Shown in pieces: positions 8,296 to 61,590 of a DNA stretch of 64,000 nucleotides. Below the pieces are notes generated by a model that was given only the letters and a program-made list of their open reading frames with translations, was not told the origin of the DNA and did not search any database. The DNA comes from an uncultured Rhodobiaceae bacterium (GTDB lineage Bacteria; Pseudomonadota; Alphaproteobacteria; Rhizobiales; TMED25): positions 79,128 to 143,127 of the forward strand of contig CAJWPC010000001.1 of assembly GCA_913045225.1 (NCBI GenBank), in the 5' to 3' direction. Both the position numbers and the translations under genes were made by a program. The number at the start of each line of letters is the position of its first letter. Positions within the stretch are counted from its first letter, which is position 1.

Positions 8296-9507
8296 TTATC
8301 TTGTGCCGAATATTATGACAGGGCGATCCTTTATTGGGTAATGTAGTACAGCTGCAAGCAAACCGAGTAAAACGGAAAACCACCACATAATGTTATAATC
8401 ACCAGTTAAGTCAAAAATCCACCCGCCCATCCACGAACTTACGAACCCACCTAATTGATGACTGAAAAATACAATTCCATATAGCATCGACATATATTTA
8501 GGTCCAAAAAAGGTTGCAACAAGACCACTTGTCAATGGGACGGTACCTAACCACAAGATACCAAGAACAAAGGTAAAAATTAATGTTGATATTACAGTGA
8601 TCGGTGTAATTATGTAGATTATAAATGCCAGAGCTCTGAGAGCATACAAAGCGACAAGTACATCATTTTTTTTGTATTTGTCACCTAAGCGACCAGCTAA
8701 TGCTACACCAAAAATATTTGCAAAACCAATCAAAGCGAGCGAAGTTGTAGCCACATTCCCCGGCAGTGACATATCTGAAATAAAAGCAGGCAGATGAGCG
8801 ACAATGAAATTCACATGAAATCCACAAATGAAAAAACCACATACTAGCAGTAGGAAGTTTTTTGATTTCAGTGCATGACTTAGTACCTCACTTAGTCTCT
8901 CACCAGCGTCATTCGTCTGGTTATTTTGGTTTCTTATTTTATCATTTTGTACCAGTCCGTAAACTAGAGGTATCATAACCAAGGAAATTGCGGCAAGTCC
9001 CAATAGAGCTCCCGACCAACCAAATGATTGAATGAAAGTGCCTGTAACGGGAACGCCTAAAAACATCCCTATTGAACCACCCATTGTTGTCAAACCTAGG
9101 GCGGTACCTCTTTTTTCAGGTGGTGCAGATTTTCCAACTGCACCTAGAATTACTGTAAAGCCCAATCCGGATAGCCCAGATCCTATAATTATTCCGCCAA
9201 GTAGTAATTCCTGAGGGGTGGCTGAATTTGATAAAATCAGAATACCACCCGAATAAAATAATGCACCTATTATAGCAACTCTTTTTAAACCAAATTTATC
9301 AGCTAGCGCCCCTGTAAATGGAGCAAGGGCTCCCCAAAGAAGATTCACAAGTCCAATTGAAAGAGCAAATGTCTCTCTTCCGATCTGCAGTGTTGTACTA
9401 ATTGGCTCCAGAAAAAGTCCAAATGATTGCCTAATACCAACTGCAATGGCAAGAATTAGGCCACCGCATATAATTTTAAATTGTAAAGGCGTCAATCCCT
9501 TAGTCAT
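8296..9507 (-). CDS. MFS transporter
   Basis: 12 TM segments; GALADKFG and GRLGDKY MFS loop motifs. Confidence 0.9.
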   Translation of the reverse strand: MTKGLTPLQFKIICGGLILAIAVGIRQSFGLFLEPISTTLQIGRETFALSIGLVNLLWGALAPFTGALADKFGLKRVAIIGALFYSGGILILSNSATPQELLLGGIIIGSGLSGLGFTVILGAVGKSAPPEKRGTALGLTTMGGSIGMFLGVPVTGTFIQSFGWSGALLGLAAISLVMIPLVYGLVQNDKIRNQNNQTNDAGERLSEVLSHALKSKNFLLLVCGFFICGFHVNFIVAHLPAFISDMSLPGNVATTSLALIGFANIFGVALAGRLGDKYKKNDVLVALYALRALAFIIYIITPITVISTLIFTFVLGILWLGTVPLTSGLVATFFGPKYMSMLYGIVFFSHQLGGFVSSWMGGWIFDLTGDYNIMWWFSVLLGLLAAVLHYPIKDRPVIIFGTR

Positions 9508-10396
9508 AAGCTCTACTCATTAAGATTTGTGTTTTAAACTTTTTAGTTTGCATGATGTAACTGCGACGATATACCTTAAGGCTCCATTTGTCATTCACTT
9601 TGTCAATATCATATTTTAAGAATGATAGTTTACCGCCGTTTGCTCGAGAGGTTGATGGGGCACCAAAGCAGGGAACATTAACCTCTTTTAGAGATATTTT
9701 TTTTTGACTTTCGGTGTGTAAGTGACCGTGTAATATCAAATTTATATTAAATCCACTGAGTATTTTAATTAATGAGTTCTTATTGAGCAGACCTTTAAAG
9801 TTCAGAAAACCGAATTCATGCAAAGGATGGTGTAATAGTAATATTATGAAATAATTATCTTTTGATAATGAATGTAATATCTCGGTTATGGTGTCTAATT
9901 GTGTTTCTGAGACACGCCCCCAAGACATTAGAGGTGGGGACGCGACAGCAGTTGAAATTCCAATGATTGCAATATCGTTAAATAATTTTAGATACGGAAA
10001 GGGTGACGCCTGAGTATTATCATGGTTATTTTCTGTGTATCGTCGCAGCATATACATTGAGTCTTCATAATTACATTTCACGTAATTATCATGGTTCCCA
10101 GGTATAATCGATAGCTTCTCTTTTGAGAAGTAACTTCCTAAGAAATCACTGGCCGACTCGAACTCACTGCGAAGTGACAAATTGACTATATCACCTGTCA
10201 AAATTGTATGGTCATCAGAATTTTTTAATATATCATCGAATATTATTTTGAGATTTTCAATGTCATGAATTTTTTTTCTGTTTGATGAATGATTAATAAA
10301 ACCAAACAATCTCTTGTTCAGTAAATCACTAAAACTCGGCTGAACTGTGATTGGAAGATGTATGTCTGAAATGTGGGATATAATCATATTATGCAC
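9500..10396 (-). CDS. Calcineurin-like metallophosphoesterase
   Basis: SDIH, TGD, PGNHD, LHHP, HGHLH metal motifs. Confidence 0.9.
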   Translation of the reverse strand: MHNMIISHISDIHLPITVQPSFSDLLNKRLFGFINHSSNRKKIHDIENLKIIFDDILKNSDDHTILTGDIVNLSLRSEFESASDFLGSYFSKEKLSIIPGNHDNYVKCNYEDSMYMLRRYTENNHDNTQASPFPYLKLFNDIAIIGISTAVASPPLMSWGRVSETQLDTITEILHSLSKDNYFIILLLHHPLHEFGFLNFKGLLNKNSLIKILSGFNINLILHGHLHTESQKKISLKEVNVPCFGAPSTSRANGGKLSFLKYDIDKVNDKWSLKVYRRSYIMQTKKFKTQILMSRAYD

Positions 10397-49053: not shown

Positions 49054-49470
49054 ATGATTGAAAATTTTAATGGTATATTTTTCCTAGTGACACATATTCT
49101 TGTTCTGATAATGATAAGTTTTTATCTTATTCGTATCATATTTGCACCAAGTGGTATTGCTGAAGAGTTTGGTGTGGATAAATCAGGAATTTATATTACA
49201 AGAATATTGGGGACGTTTGTTGCGCCGTTGTTTATTATTGGCGTTTACATCATATTTAGAGACGGTGGACCGACTGGCTGTTGGATCTGGTATGTTACTT
49301 TAGCAACAACATCAATTCTTCAACTTAGTTATGAAAGTTCCTTTTATTTTAAGAAAATTGATACTGCTATTGGTGCAAAAAATAAGTTACTCGATGTGAT
49401 CGTATCCGCTATTTTTACGATAATATCAGTTGTCCTCATTCTGGGTTTATCAGATAAAATATATTTATAG
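49054..49470 (+). CDS. Hypothetical 4-TM membrane protein
   Basis: Strong AAGGAG RBS; four hydrophobic segments; family not recognised. Confidence 0.75.
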   Translation: MIENFNGIFFLVTHILVLIMISFYLIRIIFAPSGIAEEFGVDKSGIYITRILGTFVAPLFIIGVYIIFRDGGPTGCWIWYVTLATTSILQLSYESSFYFKKIDTAIGAKNKLLDVIVSAIFTIISVVLILGLSDKIYL

Positions 49471-49508
49471 TATTTCCTATTTTTTTTCACAAATGAGATT
49501 GCATTAGT

Positions 49509-49564
49509 CTCTATTTCTGTGTTAAATAGAGTGATTATTAAAACATTACATCAGTATTGTAATG
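49509..49564. promoter_or_regulatory. Two tandem inverted repeats, candidate operators of the M24 operon
   Basis: CTCTATTT-N7-AAATAGAG (49509-49531) and CATTACA-N7-TGTAATG (49544-49564). Confidence 0.5.
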
Positions 49565-49595
49565 ATGTGTAAGAAGTTAAAAAGGGGTATGAATA

Positions 49596-50942
49596 ATGAA
49601 ACCAGTGGATCCTACTAAGGGTTATGAGCTAGATACTAGCTTTATTCAAGAGCAGCACCATACAAATCCGAGAAGACTATACAGTCAAACTGGTGCAGAT
49701 TGGCAATATCGTGTTGATCACGAAAGACTAAGAAGGCAGAGATTAGAGCGAATTAGAGCCGAAATGGAAGCGGATGATCTGGGAGCGCTTGTTGTGTTTC
49801 AAGGCGCTAATGTACGATATATAACAGGTTCCTACCAAGGAAATTGGAAATATAACATTAACATTAGGTATGCTGTGCTACCTCGTGGCGGCGATCCAGT
49901 CCTGTTTGAAACAGCTGGTTCGGATATGAGAAATGCTCACTTAGACCTACCTTGGTTGGGTGAAGAAAATATTAGACCCGCTATGACATGGCAGTGGGCT
50001 GAAGGTGCTGTTGGTGAAATGGCTGACAAAATGGTCGCAACCGTAAAGCAAGTTTTAGTTGATAACGGTGTTGACAAAGAAAAGATTGGTGTTGACCAGT
50101 TAGATATGCCTGCACTTCATGCAATGGAAAAAGCTGGCATTAAAATTGTAAATGGCTGGCCAGCAATGTCACGTGCAAGAGTTGTGAAAACAATAGACGA
50201 AATCGAGCATTTAAAGATGTCATCATCAATTGGTGATGCGGCAATGTGGCATGTTAAGCATGAGTGGTTAAAACCAGGTATAACAGAACGTCAAATCGAA
50301 GCAAAAGTACACGACTTTATGCTGTCACGTGGATGTGAAATTATTTATGACATCATTGTTGCGTCCGGTGGTAATACAAGCCCATACAGAAGATGGGCAA
50401 CTGACAAACTGATTCAACAAGGCGATCTACTAATTGTTGATATTAACGCAGTTGGCCCCGGTGGTTACTTTATTGACTATGTTCGAACATTCAAATGTGG
50501 CTCGAAAATGAGTCAGCAAGAAATTGACCTATATCGTGAAACATATGACTCAATGTATGCAGGGCTAGAAAACCTTAGACCTGGAAAAACTTCAGCAGAT
50601 GTTGTATCAAAATTCCCAGAGTATGATGATGATAAGTACGGTACTGTCACACTTCAACAGTTTGCTCACTCAATAGGTATCACACTATATGAAGGGATGT
50701 GGATGAGTAGGGCTTACTCACTAAAATATCCTGCGGAAATAAAGGAAAATATGTATTTTGCTATTGAGACTTTTGCTGGACATCCAGGCCTTCCTCAAAC
50801 TTGTAGGTTAGAGGAAAATGTTCTGGTCACAAAAGATGGACCATCTGTATTTACTAAAATGGAGCATATGGAAGAGGCCGTCGCGGGATACAGACCAGGC
50901 GAATTCCATCATGCAGAGATTTTTGGATACCCTCAAAAATAA
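49596..50942 (+). CDS. M24B-fold metalloenzyme (Xaa-Pro peptidase family, DddP-like architecture)
   Basis: Creatinase-N domain (NVRYITG), RVVKT.DEI; metal ligands D (VDINA), D (FIDYVRT), H (FAHSIG), E (FAIET), E (RLEEN). Confidence 0.9.
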   Translation: MKPVDPTKGYELDTSFIQEQHHTNPRRLYSQTGADWQYRVDHERLRRQRLERIRAEMEADDLGALVVFQGANVRYITGSYQGNWKYNINIRYAVLPRGGDPVLFETAGSDMRNAHLDLPWLGEENIRPAMTWQWAEGAVGEMADKMVATVKQVLVDNGVDKEKIGVDQLDMPALHAMEKAGIKIVNGWPAMSRARVVKTIDEIEHLKMSSSIGDAAMWHVKHEWLKPGITERQIEAKVHDFMLSRGCEIIYDIIVASGGNTSPYRRWATDKLIQQGDLLIVDINAVGPGGYFIDYVRTFKCGSKMSQQEIDLYRETYDSMYAGLENLRPGKTSADVVSKFPEYDDDKYGTVTLQQFAHSIGITLYEGMWMSRAYSLKYPAEIKENMYFAIETFAGHPGLPQTCRLEENVLVTKDGPSVFTKMEHMEEAVAGYRPGEFHHAEIFGYPQK

Positions 50943-50952
50943 ATATAATATA

Positions 50953-50980
50953 AACCTCGGGGCTTTACTGCCTCGAGGTT
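50953..50980 (+). other. Intercistronic 11-bp RNA hairpin
   Basis: AACCTCGGGGC-tttact-GCCTCGAGGTT (one G-U pair); no U tail on the + strand. Confidence 0.7.
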
Positions 50981-51034
50981 CACACCATATAAAGGCAAAC
51001 TTTTGTGTATTATAAGTTTGAAAAAAATCGCTCA

Positions 51035-51820
51035 ATGATTTTTAATCCATTAATAATTGTTGCGTCTGAACTCGGTATAAGAGATTTATCATCAGAGCCT
51101 CCAAAGCCTAAAGAACAAGTCAAGGCAATGGTTACTGCTTTTCGAAAAGTCAATGACTCAGGTATTGGTAGTGTAATAGTTGATGGTGTATCAGACGAAC
51201 AAGTGACCGAGCTCGAGGGAAATGGAGCTTACACTGTTAAAACTGATATGTCTGAATTTGGAAAAGACCACAATTATCGTTCGAAATCGGGGGCTGAACG
51301 CATAGCGGCAACAGTTAATAAATTTGATCGATATTACACACATGATATTGTTGTAGCTGTGCCTGATGATATGCCCGAGCTAAAGCCATATTATATGCAA
51401 GCACTCATGTATGCACTTTCAGATAGTGATGTCGGTATTGCTACAATGGTCTCGCCGTTAACTGATGAAGAGCGATATGATAATGAAGTGGTCAAGGCAA
51501 GGGTTGATTGGAACTCTGACAGAATCGTCTATCCTTTAGAAGGATCAAAAGTCGGCACTTTAAAGGATATTAGGAGAAATATTGATGACTTTGATACTGA
51601 CGATGTATATAAGCTTGTTCCCATACATGCGTGGAGGAGGGGTCCATTAGATAAACTAATTGAGCTGCCACCATCAGACCGTGAATTTGAAGAAGGAACG
51701 GACCTTGTTCGAGCCTTAGATGCTGGCATGAGGATTGATGTCACATTTGTAACTGACAATATGAAGGTATTGATTACACCAGAAGAATTAGATGAAGCCG
51801 CATATGAAATTGAAGGATAG
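51035..51820 (+). CDS. KdsB (CMP-Kdo synthetase)-like protein with degenerate active site
   Basis: SGAERI, DIVVAVPDDMP, GIATMV, EVVKA, AWRRGPL, LPPS..E, RALDAGMRIDV and ITPEEL follow the alphaproteobacterial KdsB scaffold; start reassigned to ATG 51035. Confidence 0.8.
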   Translation: MIFNPLIIVASELGIRDLSSEPPKPKEQVKAMVTAFRKVNDSGIGSVIVDGVSDEQVTELEGNGAYTVKTDMSEFGKDHNYRSKSGAERIAATVNKFDRYYTHDIVVAVPDDMPELKPYYMQALMYALSDSDVGIATMVSPLTDEERYDNEVVKARVDWNSDRIVYPLEGSKVGTLKDIRRNIDDFDTDDVYKLVPIHAWRRGPLDKLIELPPSDREFEEGTDLVRALDAGMRIDVTFVTDNMKVLITPEELDEAAYEIEG

Positions 51821-51846
51821 TCTGTTGCTTCAAAATGAGGTTTAAA

Positions 51847-53115
51847 ATGAATAGACCATACTACAAGCCAGATCCTGTTGGGGGGGCAGAACAATATGTT
51901 GGTGCTGAACATAAACTTAATGAGCCATGGGAGGAACAAGCCCATAATGTAAAATTAGTTGGGCATTCAGATCTAAATGGCTGGGGTGACGCCTTCCAGA
52001 TACAGGTATCAAATGGAATATGTTATGTTGCAGCTTCAGGAATTAATGGTCATAATGGCATGACAATTCTTGATGTCAAAGATCCGTCAAAGCCGAAAAT
52101 ATTAAATCAAATATCAGACTCGCCTGGTGCAAGAACCCATAAGGTTCTCAGAATTAGTGATGATGTATTAATTACAAATTCAGAGCTGAGGCCTAATCTA
52201 GTTGGTCAATATCCAGAACTAAAAGGTGGATTAAGAGTTTTTGATATATCAGATCCTATTAATCCAAAGTTTATTAGACACGTTGAAGTAGATAGTTTTG
52301 GTATACATAGACCGATCTATGATAGGGATAGAAAATTGATGTATAGTTCTGGTTTTAAAGACGGTTATAATGGAAAAATACTGCTTATTCATGATATGAA
52401 AGATCCATCAAATCCTCGTTTTATTGGTCATGGTTGGGTTGAGGGTCAAAAAGAAGGCGAAGAGTATTCATGGGATAACTCAATAGTTAAAAACGAAGCT
52501 TGGTGCCACGAAGGAAATCCATGGGGTAATTTCGTTACCGCCGGATGGTGGGATGGGGGTATTGTTTTATTTGATTGTACGGATCCATCAAAACCAGAAT
52601 TTAAGTGGAGACATAACCCTCATGAAACCCATGGTTGGCCGGGAAACTATCATAGTTTTCTTGTGCCAAAAGGCTCTGAATTTGGAATTGTCACTCAAGA
52701 AACTATAACTGTCAACTGTGAACACCCGCCAGCATTTATTACATTCTACGATTTAAGAAATAGAGATGTCCCTCTTCCAGTAAGTACATATATGCCATTT
52801 GATATAGATCCATATGAGATGAGACCATTAGACTCTAAATGGGGGCAGACAGGATCAAGGCATGGCGCTCATAATATATGGTTGGATATGGAAAAAAATG
52901 ATCTTATCTACATTGCTTGGTTTAATGCTGGGTTAAGAATCATTGACTGGAGCAATCCATTTAGCCCCAAAGAAGTTGGATCTTATATCCCAGCAGGAAA
53001 TAGAGAACGATGCTGTCCACAAAGTAACGATGTTTATGTTGATCGTGAAACCGGACTTATATATATGTCTGATCGATGGGGATTAGGTCTGCATATTCTC
53101 GAATATACAGGTTAA
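51847..53115 (+). CDS. LVIVD-repeat beta-propeller protein, cytoplasmic
   Basis: Repeats LDVKDPSKP, FDISDPINP, HDMKDPSNP, FDCTDPSKP, YDLRNRDVP, IDWSNPFSP; no signal peptide; start ATG 51847 or 51835. Confidence 0.85.
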   Translation: MNRPYYKPDPVGGAEQYVGAEHKLNEPWEEQAHNVKLVGHSDLNGWGDAFQIQVSNGICYVAASGINGHNGMTILDVKDPSKPKILNQISDSPGARTHKVLRISDDVLITNSELRPNLVGQYPELKGGLRVFDISDPINPKFIRHVEVDSFGIHRPIYDRDRKLMYSSGFKDGYNGKILLIHDMKDPSNPRFIGHGWVEGQKEGEEYSWDNSIVKNEAWCHEGNPWGNFVTAGWWDGGIVLFDCTDPSKPEFKWRHNPHETHGWPGNYHSFLVPKGSEFGIVTQETITVNCEHPPAFITFYDLRNRDVPLPVSTYMPFDIDPYEMRPLDSKWGQTGSRHGAHNIWLDMEKNDLIYIAWFNAGLRIIDWSNPFSPKEVGSYIPAGNRERCCPQSNDVYVDRETGLIYMSDRWGLGLHILEYTG

Positions 53116-53120
53116 ATTAT

Positions 53121-54308
53121 ATGAAAAAACCTTTAGAAGGTATTAGGGTAATTGAGTTTGGCAACTTTATTGCTGGACCTTTCTGCGGAATGTTGCTTGC
53201 AGATATGGGAGCAGAAGTAATAAAAATTGAGCCTCTGTCAGGTGACTTGGCCCGAGCTATACCACCAATAATTGATGGTAAAAGTGCTGCATTTATGACT
53301 CTAAATAGGAATAAAAAAAGTCTAGCAATAGATTTAAAGTCGAACCATGGTAGGTCTCTTACGCTTGAGATATGCAAATCAGCAAATGTCATAATTGAGA
53401 ACAATAGACCAGGTGTGATGCAAAGACTGGGTTTGGGTGAAGAGGAAGTAAAAAAAATAAATAATAAAATTGTTTATACATCTGTATCTGGTTTTGGACA
53501 AACAGGTGAATTAAAAAATAGAGCGGGGATAAATCTTATTATTGAAGCATTATCTGGAACGTTGTCCGTAATGGGTGAGAAAGGCGAAATTCCCCCAAGG
53601 CCCGGCTTGCAAACCGCAGACATTCTTGGTGCAATGTTTGCAACCTATTCAACTTTAGCTGGATTAATTGGACAGATTCAACACAATCAAGGTATGCATG
53701 CAGATGTAGCTCTAATCGAGGCATCCATCGCCTCTGCTGTATGGGAAACAACAGAATACTTATCGAGTGGTATCGTTCCAGAACAATTAGGGCATTCACA
53801 CCGAGCAAGTGCACCATATCAATTATTTGAAACAAATGATAAAAGGTATATTGCAATAGGCGCGCCGAGTGACGCACATTTTAAGAGATTGATGAACATA
53901 CTAGATCTAAATGATTTATGTGAAAATCCGAAATTTACTTCATATTCCAGTAGAAAAGAAAATGAAAACGATCTTGTCCCAGTTGTTGCAGAAAAAATAA
54001 TGGATTGGGACTCATCAAATTTAGAAATTAAATTGACAGAAGCTGGTATACCATGCGGCTGTGTAAGAAATTACAAAGAAGCTCTAAATAATCCTCATAG
54101 CATCGAAAGGCAGCTGGTAAAGGAAATAAGTGATGGTCAAGGTTCTAAAATTAAGACAATACGTAATCCAGTCTTAATTAATAAAAAACCAATAAGAATT
54201 GATAACCTTGCTCCAGAATTAGGTCAGCACAGCTTTGAAATTTTAAATGAAGTTGGTATTGATAAAAATGCGTTCAGCAAACTTGTCAGTGATGGGATTA
54301 CTATCTAG
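53121..54308 (+). CDS. Class III CoA-transferase (CaiB/BaiF family)
   Basis: AGPFCGMLLADMGAEVIKIEP, NRNKKS..DLK, ENNRPG, catalytic Asp in ADILGA, APELGQH; start reassigned to ATG 53121. Confidence 0.94.
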   Translation: MKKPLEGIRVIEFGNFIAGPFCGMLLADMGAEVIKIEPLSGDLARAIPPIIDGKSAAFMTLNRNKKSLAIDLKSNHGRSLTLEICKSANVIIENNRPGVMQRLGLGEEEVKKINNKIVYTSVSGFGQTGELKNRAGINLIIEALSGTLSVMGEKGEIPPRPGLQTADILGAMFATYSTLAGLIGQIQHNQGMHADVALIEASIASAVWETTEYLSSGIVPEQLGHSHRASAPYQLFETNDKRYIAIGAPSDAHFKRLMNILDLNDLCENPKFTSYSSRKENENDLVPVVAEKIMDWDSSNLEIKLTEAGIPCGCVRNYKEALNNPHSIERQLVKEISDGQGSKIKTIRNPVLINKKPIRIDNLAPELGQHSFEILNEVGIDKNAFSKLVSDGITI

Positions 54309-55356
54309 TTTTTACTTTTTCTATTATTGCATTTGTCATATCAATTGTAGAAGATTTTCCTCCAATATCTGCTGTTAGGTATTTTCTTTCTTTGATTACT
54401 TCTGATGTTGACTCCTCAATAATATTTGAAGCCATAATTAATTTTTCCTCATTATATTTAGAGCCCATCCATGATAACAGCATTGATGTTGACATAATCA
54501 TGGCATATGGGTTCGCAACATTTTTTCCTGCAATATCCGGCGCAGAACCATGCGTTGCTTGAGCCATTGCAATATTTTCTCCAAGACAGAGACCAGGCGC
54601 CATGCCAATTGAACCAATTAAACCTGCTCCAATATCACTTAATATATCGCCGAATTGATTTGTTGTTACAACAACATCAAATGACTCAGGATTTGAGACT
54701 AGGTGCATAGCAGTTGTATCAATTAGTGTATCCTCATAAGAGATTGAAGGATATTCCTTTGAAACTTTTACGCATTCCTCCAAGAACATTCCACAACTTA
54801 ATCTAAATAGGGGTTCTTTATGTGCTGCTGTAACTTTGGATCTATTTTTGCTTATAGCCAAATCAAAGGCAGCTTTAGCTACTCGATTAGAACCTTTTCT
54901 TGTAATAACCCTTGATGCGATAGTGATATCATCGTTTGGACGAAATTCAGGGTATCCTCCAACAATTGTGTCTGAACTCTGCAGACCTTCAGTTAATTCT
55001 CTGACGAAAATGATATCTATATTCTTCGAATTATCATATGACTTCGCAGGTCTTACCGCAGCATATAATTCAAATTTTTTTCTAATAGGGGGCATTTTCC
55101 ACGTCGAGTCATTTCGGGGATAATTATTATGCCCAATAGGGCCACAAATTATTCCATGGACTTCATTTAATTGAGATACTGTGTATTCAGGAAAGGTATC
55201 GCCGTACTTACTATGTGCTAAATTTCCAATGGGTAAGTCAATTAGTTCAATATCATACCCAAGGGTCTTTAGTGCTTCAGTTAATACCAACTTTGCCATT
55301 GGGACAATTTCTATACCAATATCATCACCGTTCATAATTGCAATTTTTAGCTTCAT
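54301..55356 (-). CDS. Isocitrate/isopropylmalate/tartrate dehydrogenase family (beta-decarboxylating dehydrogenase)
   Basis: GDDIGIEIV, VRELTEG, NQFGDILSD, ATHGSAPDIAGK..ANP, TADIGG. Confidence 0.92.
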   Translation of the reverse strand: MKLKIAIMNGDDIGIEIVPMAKLVLTEALKTLGYDIELIDLPIGNLAHSKYGDTFPEYTVSQLNEVHGIICGPIGHNNYPRNDSTWKMPPIRKKFELYAAVRPAKSYDNSKNIDIIFVRELTEGLQSSDTIVGGYPEFRPNDDITIASRVITRKGSNRVAKAAFDLAISKNRSKVTAAHKEPLFRLSCGMFLEECVKVSKEYPSISYEDTLIDTTAMHLVSNPESFDVVVTTNQFGDILSDIGAGLIGSIGMAPGLCLGENIAMAQATHGSAPDIAGKNVANPYAMIMSTSMLLSWMGSKYNEEKLIMASNIIEESTSEVIKERKYLTADIGGKSSTIDMTNAIIEKVKTR

Positions 55357-55386: not shown

Positions 55387-56016
55387 TTAATCAAATTTTT
55401 TTGATAGATTATTTATGAGTTGGGATACAGATTTATTAGAAAGATAGGATGTAAACTCGTCTTTTTTTTGGAGCGTAAGCGATACACCAGCAAGAGTTAG
55501 GTCTATTACTTTATACTGCTGATCTTTATTTATAATTATCCACCATCTTATTGATGCAAGTCTTGAGTCATCCTTAAGAACATCACCATCCACCAAAAAC
55601 TCTCTATTTTTTGACCCTTTGGTTCTACAACTGTCATTAACAATCCCGTATGTAACGTCTGGTTCCTCTTCATCATTATCCAATCTATCATATATCGTCT
55701 TCGTCAGCATCTTTTGGATAAGATCGGTATAGACCTCTTTCATGTCATCAGGTAGTTTCCGTGCATATTTACCGAGCATGACTTTGCCCATTGTCTCGAA
55801 ATCAGCATTTTTGTTGAGTAGCTCCGAAAGATTAGATTTTTTTTGATTTTTGGTAAACTCAGATGAGTTTATGATACTTAATGTTTCATCTGTTACTTCA
55901 TTAATGAAAGCAATAGCCTCATCGCAATATTCCCTACCATTGGCGCTCGACACAAAAATAACTAATAATAACAATGAACCAATGAGGTATTTATTTAAAT
56001 TCTGAAACATGATCAA
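55387..56016 (-). CDS. mlaC: Phospholipid-binding periplasmic protein MlaC/Ttg2D
   Basis: Signal peptide, DF..MG...LG.Y, KVIDL..AGVSL.....DEF.S. Confidence 0.85.
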   Translation of the reverse strand: MIMFQNLNKYLIGSLLLLVIFVSSANGREYCDEAIAFINEVTDETLSIINSSEFTKNQKKSNLSELLNKNADFETMGKVMLGKYARKLPDDMKEVYTDLIQKMLTKTIYDRLDNDEEEPDVTYGIVNDSCRTKGSKNREFLVDGDVLKDDSRLASIRWWIIINKDQQYKVIDLTLAGVSLTLQKKDEFTSYLSNKSVSQLINNLSKKFD

Positions 56017-56021
56017 CCTAG

Positions 56022-56855
56022 TTAGAATACTAAGTTGAGATCCCGTGCTGTGTCAATTGAAAATTCAGATGGTTCGTCGCTTGGAACACCGTTTGAAATT
56101 TCATCCATTCTTCTTTGCATGTACATATTTCTTATACTAACATAGTAATCAGTAGAACTTGCCTCGATGTCATCAAGCACATCTAGTAGTTCTTCTCGAG
56201 CAACTACAGCTTCTGAAATTCCGTATGAGTAACGATATCCATCATTTTGATTTTGCAAATACCAAGTTAGTGGGTGTACCGCAAAGTCCACTACACGCCC
56301 AGCAATATGACGCGGCGTTGATGGTCCAAAAAGAGGCGAGACAATGTAGGGACCGCTTTCAACACCATAAACAGCGAGTGTTTGTGCAAAATCTTCTGTG
56401 TGCCTCGGGTATCCCATATCTGTCGCTGGATCACCAAATCCAAAAAAACCAACTGAAGAATTTATGACAAACCTATTAACTGTGTTAGATGCTCGTTCTT
56501 CTTCACCTTGAAGGATATCATTAAAAAGAATTGTCGGAGATTCTAAGTTGCGTAGGAAATTCCTAATCGACTCGCGACCGCCTTCTGGCACAATATCCCG
56601 ATAAGCTTGAGCCATTGGTTTTAATATTGCTTTGTCAACTGCTTGGTTAAAAGCAAACATCTTTCTATTAGTTTCCTCGAAGGGATCAAAAGTATTATAA
56701 TCGATTTCAGGGGAAGATGGCTCGACGTAGGATGAATTATAATTTTCTTCAATAAATTGGGATATATCTGCTTTGGATGCTGTTGTATGCAAAAAAAGCA
56801 TTATAGAAAGTGTTATTACAAAGAGTATTCTATGTATATTTATTTTGGCCACCAT
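56022..56855 (-). CDS. mlaA: VacJ/MlaA family protein
   Basis: DPFE..NR.MF.FN...D...LKP, RF.INS.VG..G..D.A, EDFAQTL..YG...GPY.V.PL.GPSTPR. Confidence 0.92.
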   Translation of the reverse strand: MVAKINIHRILFVITLSIMLFLHTTASKADISQFIEENYNSSYVEPSSPEIDYNTFDPFEETNRKMFAFNQAVDKAILKPMAQAYRDIVPEGGRESIRNFLRNLESPTILFNDILQGEEERASNTVNRFVINSSVGFFGFGDPATDMGYPRHTEDFAQTLAVYGVESGPYIVSPLFGPSTPRHIAGRVVDFAVHPLTWYLQNQNDGYRYSYGISEAVVAREELLDVLDDIEASSTDYYVSIRNMYMQRRMDEISNGVPSDEPSEFSIDTARDLNLVF

Positions 56856-57105: not shown

Positions 57106-58029
57106 ATGAAATCAAATCAAATAGTTTTGCTTGATGGGGGAATTGGCCAGGAGATATACAAAAGAGCTGGATCACCCGAATCAAAAACGCTCTGGTCTTT
57201 ACAGATCATGCGAGATAATCCAGATATTGTAGTTGGCGTACATAAGGATTTTATAAATGCAGGATCAAAAGTTTTAAGCTTAAATAATTATGCTGCAACC
57301 CCATCAAGATTAGAGAGAGTTGGTATGCGAGACAGTTTTGATGAAATCCACTCTTTGTCCATCCAGTTGTTGAATACCGCAATTTCTGAATCAAAGTATA
57401 CTAGATCAGATTTGTCCATCGCTGGTTGCTTGCCGCCACTTATCGCTAGTTATACAGCTGAGGATAGTAGAGGCAATAAGGAACTTTTTGACGAGTATAT
57501 TCTTTTAATTGAACAGCAAATTGATGATGTCGATTTATTTCTGGTGGAGACAATGTCTAGCATCAAAGAGATAATTGTTGTCACCGATGCTCTTGATCAT
57601 TTTGGACTGGGTAAGTATGTTAGTCTCACGTTAGATGATGATTATCCCAATTTGCTCAGATCTGGTGAAAATTTGGTAGATGCGATTAAATTATTGGAAA
57701 TGAAATCCGCAGACGCAATTTTATTAAATTGCTCCTGTCCAGAAACAATATCCTCAGCGTTAACTAAATTTAAAAATATTGACATACCCTTTGGTGCTTA
57801 CGCAAATGGTTTCTCTTCTGTCAAAGATTTGAAATTTGGAAAAAGTGTAAATGTATTGGAGGCAAGAAATGACCTCGGTCCGGATGAATATTTAAAATTT
57901 GTGATGGATTGGATCAGTAAAGGTGCAAGAATAATTGGTGGCTGTTGTGAGATTGGTCCAAAGCACATCAATAGAGTTTCAGATCAGTTACACCTTAATG
58001 GCTACACAACCATGAAGCTTAGATTATAA
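57106..58029 (+). CDS. Homocysteine S-methyltransferase family protein
   Basis: LLDGGIG.E, VHKDFI.AG, ETMS, Zn ligands LNC and GGCC. Confidence 0.9.
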   Translation: MKSNQIVLLDGGIGQEIYKRAGSPESKTLWSLQIMRDNPDIVVGVHKDFINAGSKVLSLNNYAATPSRLERVGMRDSFDEIHSLSIQLLNTAISESKYTRSDLSIAGCLPPLIASYTAEDSRGNKELFDEYILLIEQQIDDVDLFLVETMSSIKEIIVVTDALDHFGLGKYVSLTLDDDYPNLLRSGENLVDAIKLLEMKSADAILLNCSCPETISSALTKFKNIDIPFGAYANGFSSVKDLKFGKSVNVLEARNDLGPDEYLKFVMDWISKGARIIGGCCEIGPKHINRVSDQLHLNGYTTMKLRL

Positions 58030-61000
58030 CTTATTTTTTTTACCGTATCCTCCACCTGAAGGAGTAGTGATCATCAGCTGATCTCCGATGGCTAATTCTA
58101 TTTGGCAATTTCCTTCTATCTCTATTGCCACATTGTTTCTTATTATTGTGTTTGACCCCAGCTTCCCCGGCTCACCTCCACAAAGACCAAATGGCTGTTC
58201 TTTCCTGTTATTTGATAACAGAGAACAACTCATATTATCACAAATGAAGAATATTTTTTTTAAACCACGGCCACCTGCAAATTTACTATTATATTGTTTC
58301 CCCTCAACTAGGGATATTTCTGAGAGAATAATTGGGTATTCTTCCTCAAAAATTTCAGGATCGGTAGATCTTGAATTTGTCATATTTGTCTGTATCGCAT
58401 CACAACCATTATGATTTTTCCCTGCTCCCTGACCTCCGCATACAGTTTCATAATATTGAAATTTGTCATTACCAAAAATGATATTGTTCATTGTAGATTG
58501 ACAAGATGCTTTGATGGAGAGCGCACCAAAAATACAATTTGCAAGAGCTTGGCTCACTTCAACATTTCCCGCTGAGACGGCCGCATTTTTTGAGGGATTT
58601 ATTATAGAGTTGCTGTCCGTAGATATTTCTACAGGTTCAAGGATTCCTGAATTTAGAGGAATATCCTCATTAATTAAACATCTTAAGACATAAATTATGA
58701 CAGCTTTTGTGATTGGAAGCGGCGCATTAAAATTATCTGAACTTTCTCCACTTGATCCAGTGAAGTCAAAGTTAATCTTTTTACCATCAGAGCATGTATT
58801 TATTCTTAATTTGAGATAAAAATTATCAAGTGTCATATCAAAGCTTGATGCTTTAATATTTTTCAATATCCCGAGACATGCCTCTTTTGCATTCTCTTGT
58901 ATTGCAAACATTTGTTTAAGAACAACCTCTAATCCATAGTAGTCAATGATTTTACGCAATTGTATCTCACCAATTTTATTTGCTGCTGCTTGAGCTGTAA
59001 TGTCTTGTATGTTGAGCTCTGGATTTCTCGCTGGATATTTACCACTATTTAATTTTTTTTGTAATCGTTCGTGTTTCGTAAGATCATTCATCCGAATTTT
59101 AAAATTATCAAATATAATACCTTCATCATCCAATTTTTTTGCTTCGGGAGTCATAGATCCAGGATAAATTCCACCAATATCAGGGTGATGACCCCGCGTG
59201 GCCAAGTAAAAAATTATATCATTGGTTTTATCAGAAAAGATAGGGGAAATAATAGTAATATCAGGCAAATGCGTTCCTCCAGAACTAGGTGAGTTATTTA
59301 TAAATATATCCCCCCTGTTTACAGATTGATTTTTCTTGATAAGCCCTTTTACGCAATCATCCATAGATCCGAGATGTACTGGTATATGAGGTGCATTCGC
59401 AACAAGATTACCGATATTATCAAATAGAGCACACGAGTAATCAAGCCGCTCTTTTATATTTATAGAGGCCGCAGTCCTTTGTAGTGTTTCCCCCATTGTT
59501 TCTGCTACTGACATAAAAAGGTTGTTAAAAATCTCCAACATTATTGGTGACTCATCAGCTTTTCTATGAGTTTTTGATGTTTTTATTTTTTTTATTAGAA
59601 TATTGCCTGATTGGTCCCTAGTTGCTTGCCATCCCTCTTCTACGATTATTGTTGAGTGATCATCAATCAGAATTGCTGGCCCTGTAAGTTTGAAGTCATA
59701 GAATTTTTCTATTCGACACACAATTGCCTTAACCCATTTTCCTTTACTATAGAAATTTTCATAATCAATCTTATTTTCAGTATTTATTTTTTTTATGGGC
59801 AGTTCGATTTTATTATATCGAGGAGTTGTTTCAACTTGGATCATATCAAGTATAATTTTTCTATTTAGATTATAGCCGTATATCTTTTTATGAATTTTCC
59901 TAAAATTTTTGATTAAATCTTCACACTTAATATTTGATTTTTTTTCTTTTATGCAAATACTTTGATCGGTACCCTTGTACTTCAAATAAAATAAATTTAA
60001 ATGAGATACAGTCATGGATTTGGTGTTAGCTAGGTTTTCTTTTTGTAATTTTTTTATAAGAGCATCAATTTTATTTCTATATTTTTTATCAAATTCAAAA
60101 AAAGTACTCTCTTGTTTAATATACTTCTCTCCAGATTGAGCCATACCATATGCCGATAAAAAACTTGATAGTGGATTAATAATAACTGTTTTGATCTCAA
60201 GGTTCTCAGCAATCTGGCAAGCGTGTTGGCCACCAGCCCCCCCATAACTCACGAGCGCATGCTCTTCCAAGTGCAGACCTTTCCTTGTGGCAATTTTTCT
60301 TATTACTCTACACATTTTCTCAACTGCAATTTTTATAAACCCTTCAGCTACATCTTCTGGAAGCATTTTTGGATCTATATTATCTCTCAGTTGATTGAAT
60401 TCCTTAGATACAATTTGCTTATTCAGTGAGGATTTGCCGTCATGGCCAAACTTCTGTGGGAAATACTTTTCTATAATTTTGCCAAGAAATAGGTTTGCAT
60501 CTGTAAGTGTGAGGGGGCCATTTTTTCCATAAGACATTGGTCCGGGGTATGAACCCGCTGATTTTGGTCCAACGATCATCCTCGAGTTCCTATAGTCTAA
60601 AATTGAACCTCCACCAGAAGCAATTGTATCTATATCAATGATAGGTACCTGAAGTATTTGGTTATCGATCGTTTTCTCATTCTTGTACTCCAATTCACCC
60701 TCGAAATGTGAGACGTCTGTAGAAGTGCCACCCATATCAAAAGTTATAATTTTTTTAAAGCCTGAGTTTTTACCGACTGAGATTGCACCCATTACGCCCC
60801 CAGCTGGACCCGATAATATAGAATTTATACCTCGGAAGTTTTTTTCTTCTGCTAGGCCACCATTCGATTGCATGTATCTAAGACTAATATTATTCTTATT
60901 AAAATTTATTTCTTTTTTTAAATTATCAATATCGCTTCTGATAATAGGATCTACATAGGCATGAACAAGAGATGTATGGGTTCTTCGTATATATTTAATC

Positions 61001-61590
61001 GTTTTTGAAATTTCATGACCAAGTGTAACATTTTTGTGTCCAAGTTGATTTAATATACTTTGGATCTCAATTTCATAACTGGGAAATTTCCATCCATGAA
61101 TTAAGCTTACACAAATTGAATTATAATTCCCTATTTTTATTTGTTTTAATTGCTCCGTAATTGTTTTCCAATTTGGTTTTATGAAATCATTCCCACTATT
61201 TGTGAGACGGATGTCCAATTCTATTACTTTTGAATACAACGGGATTGGCCTTTTGATTTCTAGTGAAAATATATCTTCTCTACTTTGATAACCAATCTTT
61301 TGGCAGTCTCTAAAGCCTTTTGGAACAATTAAAAGTGTTTTTTCACCTGTTCTCTCCAAAAGAGTATTTGTAGCTTTCGTTGTTCCAACGGTTATATTCC
61401 CTATATTTTTAAGGTCTGCAGAGTTATCGGTTAAGATTTTTTTTATACCAGTTGAAACAGGGTCATCATTCTTGTTTTGAGACTGACTCAATACTTTTTC
61501 TAGAAATAGATTATTATTTGGGGAAAGGGCAATTACATCAGTAAATGTACCACCTTTATCTATCCAGAAATTCCAATTATTTTTTTCCAT
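58024..61590 (-). CDS. ATP-dependent 5-oxoprolinase / fused hydantoinase A-B family
   Basis: DKGGTFTD, SGPAGGV, DMGGTSTDV, NIKERLDYSCA, IPVHLGSM, GGTHLPD, YYET..GG.GA, TPSGGGYG. Confidence 0.93.
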   Translation of the reverse strand: MEKNNWNFWIDKGGTFTDVIALSPNNNLFLEKVLSQSQNKNDDPVSTGIKKILTDNSADLKNIGNITVGTTKATNTLLERTGEKTLLIVPKGFRDCQKIGYQSREDIFSLEIKRPIPLYSKVIELDIRLTNSGNDFIKPNWKTITEQLKQIKIGNYNSICVSLIHGWKFPSYEIEIQSILNQLGHKNVTLGHEISKTIKYIRRTHTSLVHAYVDPIIRSDIDNLKKEINFNKNNISLRYMQSNGGLAEEKNFRGINSILSGPAGGVMGAISVGKNSGFKKIITFDMGGTSTDVSHFEGELEYKNEKTIDNQILQVPIIDIDTIASGGGSILDYRNSRMIVGPKSAGSYPGPMSYGKNGPLTLTDANLFLGKIIEKYFPQKFGHDGKSSLNKQIVSKEFNQLRDNIDPKMLPEDVAEGFIKIAVEKMCRVIRKIATRKGLHLEEHALVSYGGAGGQHACQIAENLEIKTVIINPLSSFLSAYGMAQSGEKYIKQESTFFEFDKKYRNKIDALIKKLQKENLANTKSMTVSHLNLFYLKYKGTDQSICIKEKKSNIKCEDLIKNFRKIHKKIYGYNLNRKIILDMIQVETTPRYNKIELPIKKINTENKIDYENFYSKGKWVKAIVCRIEKFYDFKLTGPAILIDDHSTIIVEEGWQATRDQSGNILIKKIKTSKTHRKADESPIMLEIFNNLFMSVAETMGETLQRTAASINIKERLDYSCALFDNIGNLVANAPHIPVHLGSMDDCVKGLIKKNQSVNRGDIFINNSPSSGGTHLPDITIISPIFSDKTNDIIFYLATRGHHPDIGGIYPGSMTPEAKKLDDEGIIFDNFKIRMNDLTKHERLQKKLNSGKYPARNPELNIQDITAQAAANKIGEIQLRKIIDYYGLEVVLKQMFAIQENAKEACLGILKNIKASSFDMTLDNFYLKLRINTCSDGKKINFDFTGSSGESSDNFNAPLPITKAVIIYVLRCLINEDIPLNSGILEPVEISTDSNSIINPSKNAAVSAGNVEVSQALANCIFGALSIKASCQSTMNNIIFGNDKFQYYETVCGGQGAGKNHNGCDAIQTNMTNSRSTDPEIFEEEYPIILSEISLVEGKQYNSKFAGGRGLKKIFFICDNMSCSLLSNNRKEQPFGLCGGEPGKLGSNTIIRNNVAIEIEGNCQIELAIGDQLMITTPSGGGYGKKNKL

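What the first reader, a model, noticed from the sequence alone, without database searches (positions are those of the whole stretch)
51035..51820. KdsB-fold pseudoenzyme: scaffold intact, CTP/Kdo/Mg residues lost
Seen: the N-terminal PARxxSxRLPGKPL loop is replaced by VASELGIRDLSSEPPKP; QGD becomes PDD, HIGLY becomes LVPIH, LEQLR becomes TDLVR, and GVDTP becomes VLITP. Surrounding motifs (SG.ERI, LPPS, RAL.AGMRIDV) match alphaproteobacterial KdsB closely. The protein is strongly acidic, uninterrupted, and sits among non-LPS genes. Established: KdsB needs the Arg/Lys loop (E. coli Arg10, Lys19) and Asp100/Asp235 for Mg-CTP. Inference: a neofunctionalised paralogue, such as a ligand-binding, scaffolding or activating subunit for the M24 or propeller enzyme.
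Basis: partly seen in the sequence, partly recalled or inferred. Interest (0 to 1): 0.75.

Follow-up and report, generated by a model that had tools for sequence, protein, structure and literature searches.

The report
Inactive KdsB copy partnered with M24 enzyme
This gene encodes a copy of the LPS-sugar-activating enzyme KdsB that has lost its catalytic residues but is strongly conserved, and it always sits next to one tail-bearing form of a very conserved M24 metalloenzyme, so it most likely serves as that enzyme's non-catalytic partner.

Summary
The ORF (probably 51005-51820, GTG start; 51035 is an internal Met) has the KdsB fold (Foldseek top 32 hits all KdsB, E 1e-15). It fails every curated KdsB threshold and lacks the CTP-loop Arg10/Lys19 and the second Mg-A aspartate; the Asp100 equivalent is kept.

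It is not decaying: dN/dS is 0.03-0.08 among OCS116-cluster orthologues.

It belongs to a small monophyletic "HNY" subfamily of KdsB. The basal branch sits at the normal alphaproteobacterial kdsB position (cytochrome c | kdsB | pheA). The derived branches lost catalytic residues in different ways.

In 23 of 23 non-redundant loci, the gene lies directly downstream of a DddP-like M24 metalloenzyme that is 76-100% identical across phyla and carries a C-terminal YRxGxFHH...GYP tail. In 0 of 23 loci does it follow the tail-less form.

The LVIVD propeller is a lineage-specific insertion, not a partner.

Best reading: a non-catalytic subunit, regulator or assembly factor of the tailed M24 enzyme. Binding is inferred, not shown. 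The M24 substrate is unknown. Whether a canonical kdsB exists elsewhere in this genome could not be tested.

The parts
51005..51820 (+). KdsB-like pseudoenzyme gene ('KdsBL', HNY subfamily, clade A).
   Evidence: ORF. Start-codon argument. KdsB homology. Fold. Motif losses. dN/dS 0.03-0.08.
49596..50942 (+). Partner gene: DddP-like M24 metalloenzyme (Creatinase_N + Peptidase_M24, 448 aa), tail-bearing form. All five M24 metal ligands are kept.
   Evidence: Pfam and NCBIfam. Alignment to 1pv9 and 4s01. 76-100% identity across loci. dN/dS about 0.01.
50880..50939 (+). Codons for the M24 C-terminal tail (VAGYRPGEFHHAEIFGYPQK). It is absent from the stand-alone 422-425 aa form, and its presence predicts a KdsBL gene downstream.
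   Evidence: Alignment A4. Tail versus KdsBL tables: 23/23 vs 0/23, Fisher p about 6e-12 without phylogenetic correction.
50953..50980 (+). Conserved stem-loop between the M24 stop and the KdsBL start (11 bp stem, 6 nt loop). Possibly a leaky terminator or an RNA-stability element that sets the M24:KdsBL expression ratio.
   Evidence: Fold z-score -4.3. Six of 11 pairs show compensatory changes across OCS116 lineages. Hairpins at the same place in GC-rich relatives.
51835..53115 (+). LVIVD-repeat beta-propeller gene. It is a lineage-specific insertion between KdsBL and CaiB and is not part of the conserved module.
   Evidence: Pfam. Present only in L008-L018; absent in L019-L022, L007, L002 and others.
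53076..54308 (+). Family III CoA-transferase (CaiB-like). It follows KdsBL in the OCS116-related lineages only.
   Evidence: Pfam and NCBIfam. Synteny.
54301..55356 (-). Iso_dh-family dehydrogenase, convergent with CaiB. It is conserved next to the module in OCS116-related lineages.
   Evidence: Pfam. Synteny.

Best explanation
The gene encodes a KdsB-fold protein that no longer makes CMP-Kdo. It acts as a non-catalytic partner of the M24 metalloenzyme encoded directly upstream.

Shown:
- It has the KdsB fold.
- It has lost the CTP-loop Arg/Lys, the ribose-contact Gly and one of the two Mg-A aspartates.
- It is under strong purifying selection.
- It belongs to a monophyletic 'HNY' KdsB subfamily.
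- It is strictly adjacent to the tail-bearing M24 form and absent next to the tail-less form.
- Different M24-linked clades destroyed the old active site in different ways.

Inferred:
- An HNY-type housekeeping KdsB of a Rhodospirillales-like lineage acquired a second role with the M24 enzyme.
- A duplicate kept only that role and then travelled with the M24 gene as a two-gene module into OCS116/Hyphomicrobiales, Rhodobacteraceae and others.
- The protein binds the M24 enzyme, most plausibly through the M24 C-terminal YRxGxFHH...GYP tail. The tail would dock on the HNY-specific surface (NPL, HNY loop, FDRFYxHD, W159/R163) or in the vacated nucleotide/sugar cleft.
- Binding would stabilise, activate, regulate or help assemble or metallate the enzyme.

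The M24 substrate is unknown. It is probably a small organic acid or osmolyte-type compound, judged from neighbouring aldolase, dehydrogenase, CoA-transferase and transporter genes.
For: Fold and homology.

Catalytic losses:
-, read against the residue roles in PMC3149649: R10/T14/R15/K19 bind the triphosphate; P8, R10, R76, G94 contact cytidine; D95 and D219 hold Mg-A.
- Only the R76 and D95 equivalents survive here.
- Across M24-linked clades the QGD site reads PDD, PEH, YGH, HGG, GAG or PDG, and the D235 site is never Asp.

Selection: dN/dS is 0.03-0.08, against rpoD 0.014-0.04 and CaiB 0.12-0.19.

Linkage:
- M24 lies immediately upstream in every clade A locus, including a Rhodobacteraceae isolate at 57% KdsBL identity.
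- It also lies upstream of partners only 29-39% identical to this protein.
- Counts are tail-GYP M24 23/23, tail-less 0/23, tail-SSVDGRDH 0/4.
- M24 stays 82-100% identical while its linked partner falls to about 30%. This asymmetry is typical of a core enzyme with an accessory protein.

Unlinked case: single-cell genome RIS_SAG_35 holds a tailed M24 plus HNY clades B and C on other contigs.

Phylogeny:
- The HNY family is monophyletic (100/100) and clade C is basal.
- Clade B is nested among the M24-linked clades (81/100).
- Clade C sits at cytochrome c | kdsB | pheA, like canonical alphaproteobacterial KdsBs.
- Every position conserved in the derived clades is also conserved in clade C. The derived copies therefore kept the HNY-specific features and shed only the catalytic ones.
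Against: - No direct evidence of contact exists. No M24-KdsBL fusion proteins appear among the best 150 of 1.84 billion representatives.
- A conserved, partly terminator-like hairpin separates the two genes. Expression may therefore be uncoupled or sub-stoichiometric.
- The tail-less M24 form, 76-79% identical with the same metal ligands, exists without any KdsBL. The partner is thus not needed for basic M24 chemistry.
- The HNY-specific conserved residues are shared with clade C, which looks like a housekeeping KdsB. They could reflect lineage history rather than an M24 interface.
- Many invariant polar residues (D50, N80, R99, H103, D104, R163, D206) would also fit a new catalytic or ligand site.
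- The tail correlation is not phylogenetically corrected.
Confidence: 0.55

Rival explanations
1. KdsBL is a real enzyme with a new chemistry on the old scaffold. It would carry out a separate step of the same pathway as M24, for example acting on the M24 substrate or product, rather than binding M24.
For: dN/dS is as low as for housekeeping genes. Invariant polar residues are spread over the fold: D50, N80/Y81, R89, D98, R99, H103, D104, R163, R202, D206, R233. Conserved operon-like adjacency is equally expected for consecutive pathway enzymes.
Against: All triphosphate-binding residues are gone, and the former catalytic positions differ between M24-linked clades. No single new active-site constellation is visible at the old site. 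All family-wide conserved positions are shared with the apparently housekeeping clade C. The gene's presence tracks a C-terminal peptide tail on M24 rather than any pathway gene. Other neighbours vary freely.
Confidence: 0.2
2. KdsBL is a transient maturation factor for the M24 enzyme, such as a metallochaperone-like or folding helper, rather than a stable subunit.
For: The conserved intercistronic hairpin, with T-runs in some relatives, suggests lower expression of KdsBL than of M24. A CobW_C-only ORF sits directly upstream of M24 in several tailed loci. The M24 tail has an invariant His-His pair. M24 keeps a dinuclear metal site.
Against: The evidence is purely circumstantial. CobW_C is present in only 4 of 24 tailed representatives. 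No metal-binding motif was identified in KdsBL. The tail-less M24 form needs no such factor.
Confidence: 0.15
3. It is still a CMP-Kdo synthetase (or another cytidylyltransferase) with unorthodox motifs, possibly the genome's only KdsB.
For: It has the KdsB fold and full-length homology. The Asp100 and Arg78 equivalents are retained. A canonical kdsB could not be located, because only 64 kb of this genome is visible. Clade C shows that an altered CTP loop (PSQ..PKKQ) can occupy the housekeeping locus.
Against: It lacks Arg10, Arg15, Lys19, Gly99 and Asp235, which bind CTP and Mg-A. Scores are 89 vs 281 and 49 vs 155 bits against curated KdsB models. It is not at the cytochrome c | kdsB | pheA locus. 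Orthologous partners even lose the remaining Asp. The same module occurs in a Rhodobacteraceae isolate and in a MAG (metagenome-assembled genome) assigned to Bauldia litoralis; both taxa are expected, from general knowledge, to have ordinary kdsB.
Confidence: 0.03
4. It is a decaying pseudogene or a mis-called ORF.
For: Catalytic motifs are degenerate and there is no Pfam hit.
Against: The reading frame is intact in more than 80 loci. dN/dS is 0.03-0.08 with saturated dS. More than 160 homologues exist at 47-100% identity. The predicted fold is confident.
Confidence: 0.01

Closest known systems
KdsB / CMP-Kdo synthetase (3-deoxy-manno-octulosonate cytidylyltransferase; Pfam PF02348, TIGR00466, NF003948; PDB 3K8D, 1VH3, 2Y6P)
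   Same: Same fold and domain order, with full-length sequence homology. It shares the SGxxR helix cap, the LPPSDRE and RALDAGMRIDV motifs, and one Mg-A aspartate. It descends from a KdsB lineage whose basal member sits at the normal kdsB locus.
   Different: It lacks the CTP loop (R10, R15, K19), G99 and D235, and its Kdo-side motifs are changed. It carries two insertions (the HNY loop and about 8 aa in the arm). It scores below all curated thresholds. It lies in a non-LPS context and is always paired with an M24 enzyme.
Non-catalytic nucleotidyltransferase-fold paralogues used as regulatory subunits (GMPPA with GMPPB, eIF2B gamma/epsilon NT-like domains, plant AGPase large subunit; recalled from general knowledge, not tested here)
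   Same: A sugar-nucleotidyltransferase-type fold that has lost catalysis but is conserved and works through protein-protein or ligand binding.
   Different: Those pseudoenzymes pair with their own active paralogue. Here the inferred partner is an unrelated M24 'pita-bread' metalloenzyme, and binding is not yet shown.
DddP (DMSP lyase) and creatinase/prolidase M24B enzymes (PDB 4S01/4RZY, 1PV9): the closest relatives of the partner enzyme
   Same: The partner has Creatinase_N + Peptidase_M24 architecture and all five metal ligands. DddP is its best PDB and NCBIfam match.
   Different: It scores only 122 bits against the DddP cut-off of 600, and E 8e-24 to 4S01. It forms its own very conserved family (at least 1585 members) with three C-terminal forms. 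No described M24 enzyme is known to me to need a KdsB-like partner, and five full-text searches, three of them aimed at such a pairing, found none.

Membership tests
KdsB (CMP-Kdo synthetase) | KdsB three-dimensional fold (nucleotide-binding alpha/beta domain plus dimerisation arm) | tested here: met
   AF2 model pLDDT 84. The Foldseek PDB top 32 hits are all KdsB, E 1e-15 to 3e-12, TM 0.62-0.78.
KdsB (CMP-Kdo synthetase) | Score above the curated family thresholds (NCBIfam NF003948, TIGR00466; Pfam PF02348) | tested here: not met
   89 vs 281 bits and 49 vs 155 bits. PF02348 is not reported at E <= 0.1.
KdsB (CMP-Kdo synthetase) | CTP loop PAR..(S/T)R..GKP, with Arg10, Arg15 and Lys19 binding the triphosphate | tested here: not met
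   It is replaced by VASELGI..RDLSSEPP. Residue roles come from PMC3149649.
KdsB (CMP-Kdo synthetase) | Two strictly conserved aspartates holding Mg-A (E. coli D100 and D235; Aquifex D95 and D219) | tested here: not met
   The D100 equivalent is kept (VPDD) but D235 is Ile (VLITP). In other M24-linked clades the first Asp is also lost.
KdsB (CMP-Kdo synthetase) | C-terminal-domain motifs conserved in canonical KdsBs (HxGxY, LEQLR) | tested here: not met
   They read LVPIH and TDLVR. Their role in Kdo binding is recalled from the literature and was not checked here.
KdsB (CMP-Kdo synthetase) | Alphaproteobacterial housekeeping position: cytochrome c | kdsB | pheA | tested here: not met
   Canonical P0120 and P0119, and HNY clade C, sit there. 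The window gene sits at rpoD - M24 - X - LVIVD - CaiB.
KdsB (CMP-Kdo synthetase) | CMP-Kdo synthetase activity or complementation of kdsB | not testable with these tools
   This needs an enzyme assay and a conditional kdsB mutant.
Pseudoenzyme acting as accessory protein of another enzyme | Catalytic residues lost while the fold is kept | tested here: met
Pseudoenzyme acting as accessory protein of another enzyme | Purifying selection on the inactive copy | tested here: met
   dN/dS is 0.03-0.08 over pairs with dS 0.2-2.9. The ORF is intact in more than 80 loci.
Pseudoenzyme acting as accessory protein of another enzyme | Conserved genomic association with one specific partner | tested here: met
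   23/23 tailed M24 loci against 0/23 tail-less loci. The association persists down to about 30% partner identity.
Pseudoenzyme acting as accessory protein of another enzyme | Physical complex with the partner and an effect on it | not testable with these tools
No fusion proteins were found.
DddP DMSP lyase (for the partner M24) | Score above the NCBIfam DddP equivalog threshold | tested here: not met
   122.5 vs 600 bits.
M24 metalloenzymes (for the partner) | Five metal ligands D, D, H, E, E | tested here: met
   The alignment to P. furiosus prolidase 1PV9 and to DddP 4S01 keeps all five. They are invariant in A4.

The most novel reading that the evidence does not exclude
An HNY-type housekeeping KdsB in a Rhodospirillales-like ancestor already bound the tailed M24 enzyme, that is, a moonlighting link between envelope-precursor synthesis and a catabolic metalloenzyme. 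After duplication, one copy became a pure non-catalytic subunit. The M24 + pseudo-KdsB pair then spread horizontally as a two-protein enzyme of still unknown substrate that is common in streamlined marine Alphaproteobacteria. This would be the first case of a KdsB-fold pseudoenzyme, and the first M24 enzyme with an obligate heterologous subunit recognised through a C-terminal peptide tail.
Probability: 0.25. Interest if true: 0.75.

Novelty: new variant of a known kind. Interest (0 to 1): 0.6.

Why it matters
Pseudoenzymes that regulate or scaffold active enzymes are well known in eukaryotes and poorly charted in bacteria. I know of no KdsB-fold example, and five full-text searches, three of them aimed at such a pairing, found none.

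Annotation pipelines still label many members '3-deoxy-manno-octulosonate cytidylyltransferase'. That can create false LPS-pathway calls in metagenome-assembled genomes of abundant marine groups such as the OCS116 cluster and Rhodospirillaceae.

The partner M24 enzyme is 76-100% identical across phyla and has at least 1585 homologues, so it is clearly important, yet it has no assigned substrate. Knowing that one form needs a dedicated partner, marked by a short C-terminal tail, gives a concrete handle for expressing it actively and finding its substrate.

The family also offers a clean natural series (housekeeping-position copy, unlinked copy, linked copies with differently wrecked active sites) for studying how a pseudoenzyme arises.

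Tried and rejected
1. Complex prediction: I built 13 paired M24 + linker + KdsBL sequences (A5).
2. M24 monomer model: it came out at pLDDT 64.7 from an 18-sequence alignment. That is too poor to interpret or to search with, so it was not used.
3. Canonical kdsB elsewhere in the genome: tblastn of a canonical KdsB found only the target gene in the 64 kb window and in all fetched flanks. A third homologue search would list only the 120 best hits and was unlikely to surface the OCS116 copy, so it was not run.
4. Fusion (Rosetta-stone) search: none among the best 150 representatives or the best 120 M24 homologues.
5. Literature: searches for KdsB + M24/creatinase, KdsB-like pseudoenzymes, DddP-like M24 enzymes and OCS116 genomes found nothing describing this pair.
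6. LVIVD propeller as partner: rejected because it is absent outside one sub-lineage.
7. Defence-system link: no PADLOC hits.
8. The 274-aa ORF downstream of the tail-SSVDGRDH M24 form, tested as a cryptic KdsBL: unrelated (hhalign probability 0.3%).
9. Promoter/terminator consensus scan of 49400-54400: not above the shuffled expectation and no hit in the spacer.
10. Signature specific to M24-linked copies relative to clade C: none found beyond L125M and I173V.
11. The Pfam Glyco_transf_21 hit (E 0.023, below cut-off) is treated as noise.
Full report
**What is at the coordinates**

The + strand carries an uninterrupted ORF ending at 51820.

- The ten in-frame codons upstream ('VYYKFEKNRS') are conserved at the protein level in relatives, with synonymous codon changes.
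- These codons begin with ATG in GC-rich relatives (L002, L024, L028, L030) and with GTG in the low-GC ones.
- They are preceded by AAGG(A) 10-13 nt upstream.
- The gene is therefore most likely 51005-51820 (271 aa).

The window comes from an OCS116-cluster alphaproteobacterium (Rhodobiaceae/Hyphomicrobiales, genomes of about 1.4 Mb) by near-identity to single-cell and metagenome-assembled genomes (SAGs and MAGs). GC content is about 36%.

**Is it KdsB-like with a degenerate active site?**

Yes, it is KdsB-like.

- NCBIfam KdsB models match over the full length (NF003948, E 2e-25) but far below their cut-offs: 89 vs 281 bits, and TIGR00466 49 vs 155 bits.
- Pfam CTP_transf_3 is not detected.
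- PDB KdsB chains match at E 6e-7.
- An AlphaFold2 model from a 60-sequence alignment is confident (pLDDT 84, pTM 0.83). Its best 32 Foldseek matches in the PDB are all KdsB (E 1e-15 to 3e-12).

The Aquifex KdsB structure paper (PMC3149649) assigns these roles:

- R10, T14, R15 and K19 bind the triphosphate.
- P8, R10, L70, P71, R76 and G94 contact cytidine.
- The strictly conserved D95 and D219 (E. coli D100 and D235) hold Mg-A.

Only the R76 equivalent (R89) and the D95/D100 equivalent (D112 in VPDD) survive here. Gly99 is Asp and Asp235 is Ile.

The protein is acidic: pI 4.5, net charge -21. It has two insertions relative to canonical KdsB. One is a 'K(D/N)HNYRS' loop before SGAER. The other is about 8 residues in the beta-arm.

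**Is it decaying?**

No.

- Against orthologues in other OCS116 lineages, dN/dS is 0.03-0.08 at dS 0.2-2.9. This is similar to rpoD (0.014-0.04) and lower than the neighbouring CaiB (0.12-0.19).
- The homologue search found 165 proteins. About 88 are at 56-100% identity with no Pfam domain recorded.
- The frame is intact in more than 80 fetched loci.

**The family**

A profile search of 1.84 billion representatives found only 20 clusters at E <= 1e-30. Scores then drop to the level of ordinary KdsBs. This is a small, distinct subfamily, here called HNY after its inserted loop.

A neighbour-joining tree shows:

- The HNY family is monophyletic (100/100 bootstraps).
- Clade C, from marine Rhodospirillaceae MAGs, is basal.
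- All the other clades are derived.
- Clade B, from the same MAGs, is nested among the M24-linked clades (81/100).

Clade C keeps Lys19, Asp100 and Asp235, although its loop reads PSQ..PKKQ. It sits between a divergent cytochrome c gene and pheA. This is the arrangement found for the canonical KdsBs P0120 (cytochrome c) and P0119 (pheA). It therefore looks like the positional orthologue of housekeeping kdsB.

The derived clades all lack the CTP-loop Arg/Lys and Asp235. They differ at the QGD site, which reads PDD, PEH, YGH, HGG, GAG or PDG. The old active site is under no common constraint.

By contrast, every position conserved across the derived clades is also conserved in clade C. These positions are N4-P5-L6, D50, A65-Y66, N80-Y81, S85-G86, R89, F97-D98-R99, H103-D104, W159, R163, G174, P196, R202, D206 and R233. 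The copies kept the fold and the HNY-specific features and shed catalysis.

**The constant neighbour**

The gene directly upstream (49596-50942) encodes a Creatinase_N + Peptidase_M24 protein.

- Its best named relatives are DddP DMSP lyases, but far below threshold: 122 vs 600 bits, and PDB 4S01 at E 8e-24.
- All five M24 metal ligands are present.
- It is extraordinarily conserved. It is 84-100% identical in all clade A loci, 82-86% next to partners only 29-39% identical to the window protein, and 76-79% in Desulfobacterota-type contigs. Its dN/dS is about 0.01.
- At least 1585 homologues exist.

Aligned, the M24 family has three C-terminal forms:

- a short form ending ..MEHMEEAMR (422-425 aa);
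- a form with a tail ..YRxGxFHH...(F/L)GYP.. (442-453 aa);
- a form with a tail ..YRVGxFHHSSVDGRDH (442 aa).

I fetched 80 further M24 loci from metagenomes and reduced all loci to representatives below 96% M24 identity with at least 700 bp downstream. A KdsB-like gene follows:

- the GYP-tailed form in 23 of 23 loci;
- the short form in 0 of 23 loci;
- the SSVDGRDH form in 0 of 4 loci.

Fisher p is about 6e-12, not corrected for phylogeny (L025 and L088 were corrected by hand).

The SSVDGRDH form occurs in single-cell genome RIS_SAG_35. That genome also holds clades B and C on other contigs. This is an unlinked version of the same pairing, and clade B is the likely partner.

Other neighbours vary:

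- LVIVD occurs only in one OCS116 sub-lineage.
- CaiB and Iso_dh occur only in OCS116-related lineages.
- TRAP transporter, LysR and FAA-hydrolase genes occur in the Rhodobacteraceae isolate.
- Arginase and permease genes occur elsewhere.

The propeller is not a partner.

**How it probably works**

The following are shown:

- loss of the KdsB catalytic apparatus;
- strong selection;
- strict, deep linkage to one M24 form marked by a C-terminal peptide tail;
- much faster evolution of the KdsB-like protein than of M24.

From these I infer a non-catalytic partner that binds the M24 enzyme. Most simply, it would capture the YRxGxFHH...GYP tail on the HNY-specific surface or in the emptied cleft. 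It would then stabilise, activate, regulate or mature the enzyme.

Because the conserved features predate the loss of catalysis, the second role may have begun in a still-active KdsB and been partitioned after duplication.

The points against this reading are real:

- There is no contact evidence.
- A conserved hairpin lies between the genes. It has compensatory changes at 6 of 11 pairs and T-runs in some relatives. It could uncouple expression.
- The tail-less M24 form lives without any partner.
- The invariant polar residues would also suit a new active site.

I put 0.55 on the partner model, with stable subunit, regulator or assembly factor left unresolved. The rivals rate as follows:

| Rival | Confidence |
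|---|---|
| Separate new enzyme | 0.2 |
| Transient maturation factor (suggested by CobW_C-only ORFs upstream of M24 in 4 of 24 tailed representatives, and by the His-His pair in the tail) | 0.15 |
| Still a cytidylyltransferase | 0.03 |
| Pseudogene | 0.01 |

**What the module does**

This is unknown. Recurrent neighbours of the M24 family are:

- HMGL-like aldolase/lyase (13 of 28 short-form representatives);
- cupin-HTH regulators;
- D-2-hydroxyacid, GFO/IDH/MocA, FAD-linked and short-chain dehydrogenases;
- FAA-family hydrolases and RidA;
- CoA-transferases;
- TRAP, MFS and ABC transporters.

These point to catabolism of a small organic compound and not to peptide processing. I could not narrow it further. 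There is no defence-system signal.

**Limits**

Whether this genome has a canonical kdsB elsewhere could not be tested.

- None is present in the window or the flanks.
- MlaA and MlaC in the window suggest a normal asymmetric outer membrane.
- The module also occurs in a Rhodobacteraceae isolate and in a Bauldia litoralis MAG. Both taxa are expected, from general knowledge only, to have ordinary kdsB.

**Novelty**

Non-catalytic nucleotidyltransferase-fold paralogues are a known kind (GMPPA, eIF2B subunits; recalled, not tested). A KdsB-derived one tied to an unrelated M24 metalloenzyme through a tail motif appears undescribed: five full-text searches, three of them aimed at such a pairing, found nothing. 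I file it as a new variant of a known kind.

Many database members are still named CMP-Kdo synthetase. For clade A and the other M24-linked clades that name is almost certainly wrong.

Noticed in passing
window 51005-51037: The likely true start of the target gene is GTG 51005, not ATG 51035. The N-terminal extension '..F.E(K/Q)NRS' is conserved with synonymous codon changes, and relatives have ATG at the aligned position. An AAGG(A) box lies 10-13 nt upstream.
   Followed up: yes
window 50953-50980: An 11-bp stem-loop lies right after the M24 stop codon. Compensatory changes occur at 6 of 11 pairs among OCS116 lineages. Unrelated hairpins sit at the same place in GC-rich relatives, some followed by T-runs (for example L026). 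It may be a leaky terminator that sets the M24:KdsBL ratio.
   Followed up: partly
window 49596-50942 and loci L059-L143: The M24 enzyme family is 76-100% identical across phyla (dN/dS about 0.01, at least 1585 homologues). It has no assigned function and three distinct C-terminal forms: none, YRxGxFHH..GYP, and YRVGxFHHSSVDGRDH.
   Followed up: partly
L042, L047-L052 (e.g. L050 9989-10783): In marine Rhodospirillaceae MAGs, the gene at the usual cytochrome c | kdsB | pheA position (clade C) has an altered CTP loop (IPSQ..PKKQ instead of IPAR..GKP) and HDD instead of QGD. It keeps Lys19, Asp100 and Asp235. If it is the only KdsB there, Arg10 is dispensable in that lineage.
   Followed up: partly
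L059 7388-7987; L078 3448-3933: A short ORF holding only a CobW_C domain (no GTPase domain) lies directly upstream of the tailed M24 gene in 4 of 24 non-redundant tailed loci, from different KdsBL clades.
   Followed up: no
window 51835-54308 compared with L010-L017: Synonymous divergence of the LVIVD gene (dS 0.28-0.59) and the CaiB gene (0.23-0.37) is much lower than that of KdsBL and rpoD (0.8-2.4) for the same genome pairs. The LVIVD gene is missing in sister lineages (L019-L022). This suggests recent acquisition and recombinational spread of this segment among OCS116 lineages. The two ORFs overlap by 40 nt.
   Followed up: no
window 49054-49470: A 138-aa hydrophobic ORF with no Pfam hit lies between rpoD and M24. 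It is conserved (81-95%) only within part of the OCS116 lineage.
   Followed up: no
L029 about 8546-9886: The M24 reading frame in this MAG shows an in-frame stop or frameshift near codon 186 when extracted with the tblastn coordinates. It could be an assembly error or my coordinates.
   Followed up: no
L146 3355-4179: A 274-aa, highly charged ORF with no Pfam hit follows the tail-SSVDGRDH form of M24 in several contigs. It is unrelated to KdsB.
   Followed up: partly
window 55387-56855 and 58024-61590: MlaC and MlaA genes (outer-membrane lipid asymmetry) and a fused hydantoinase A/B (oxoprolinase-like, 1188 aa) lie just downstream on the minus strand. The Mla genes imply an LPS- or LOS-type outer membrane in this organism.
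   Followed up: no
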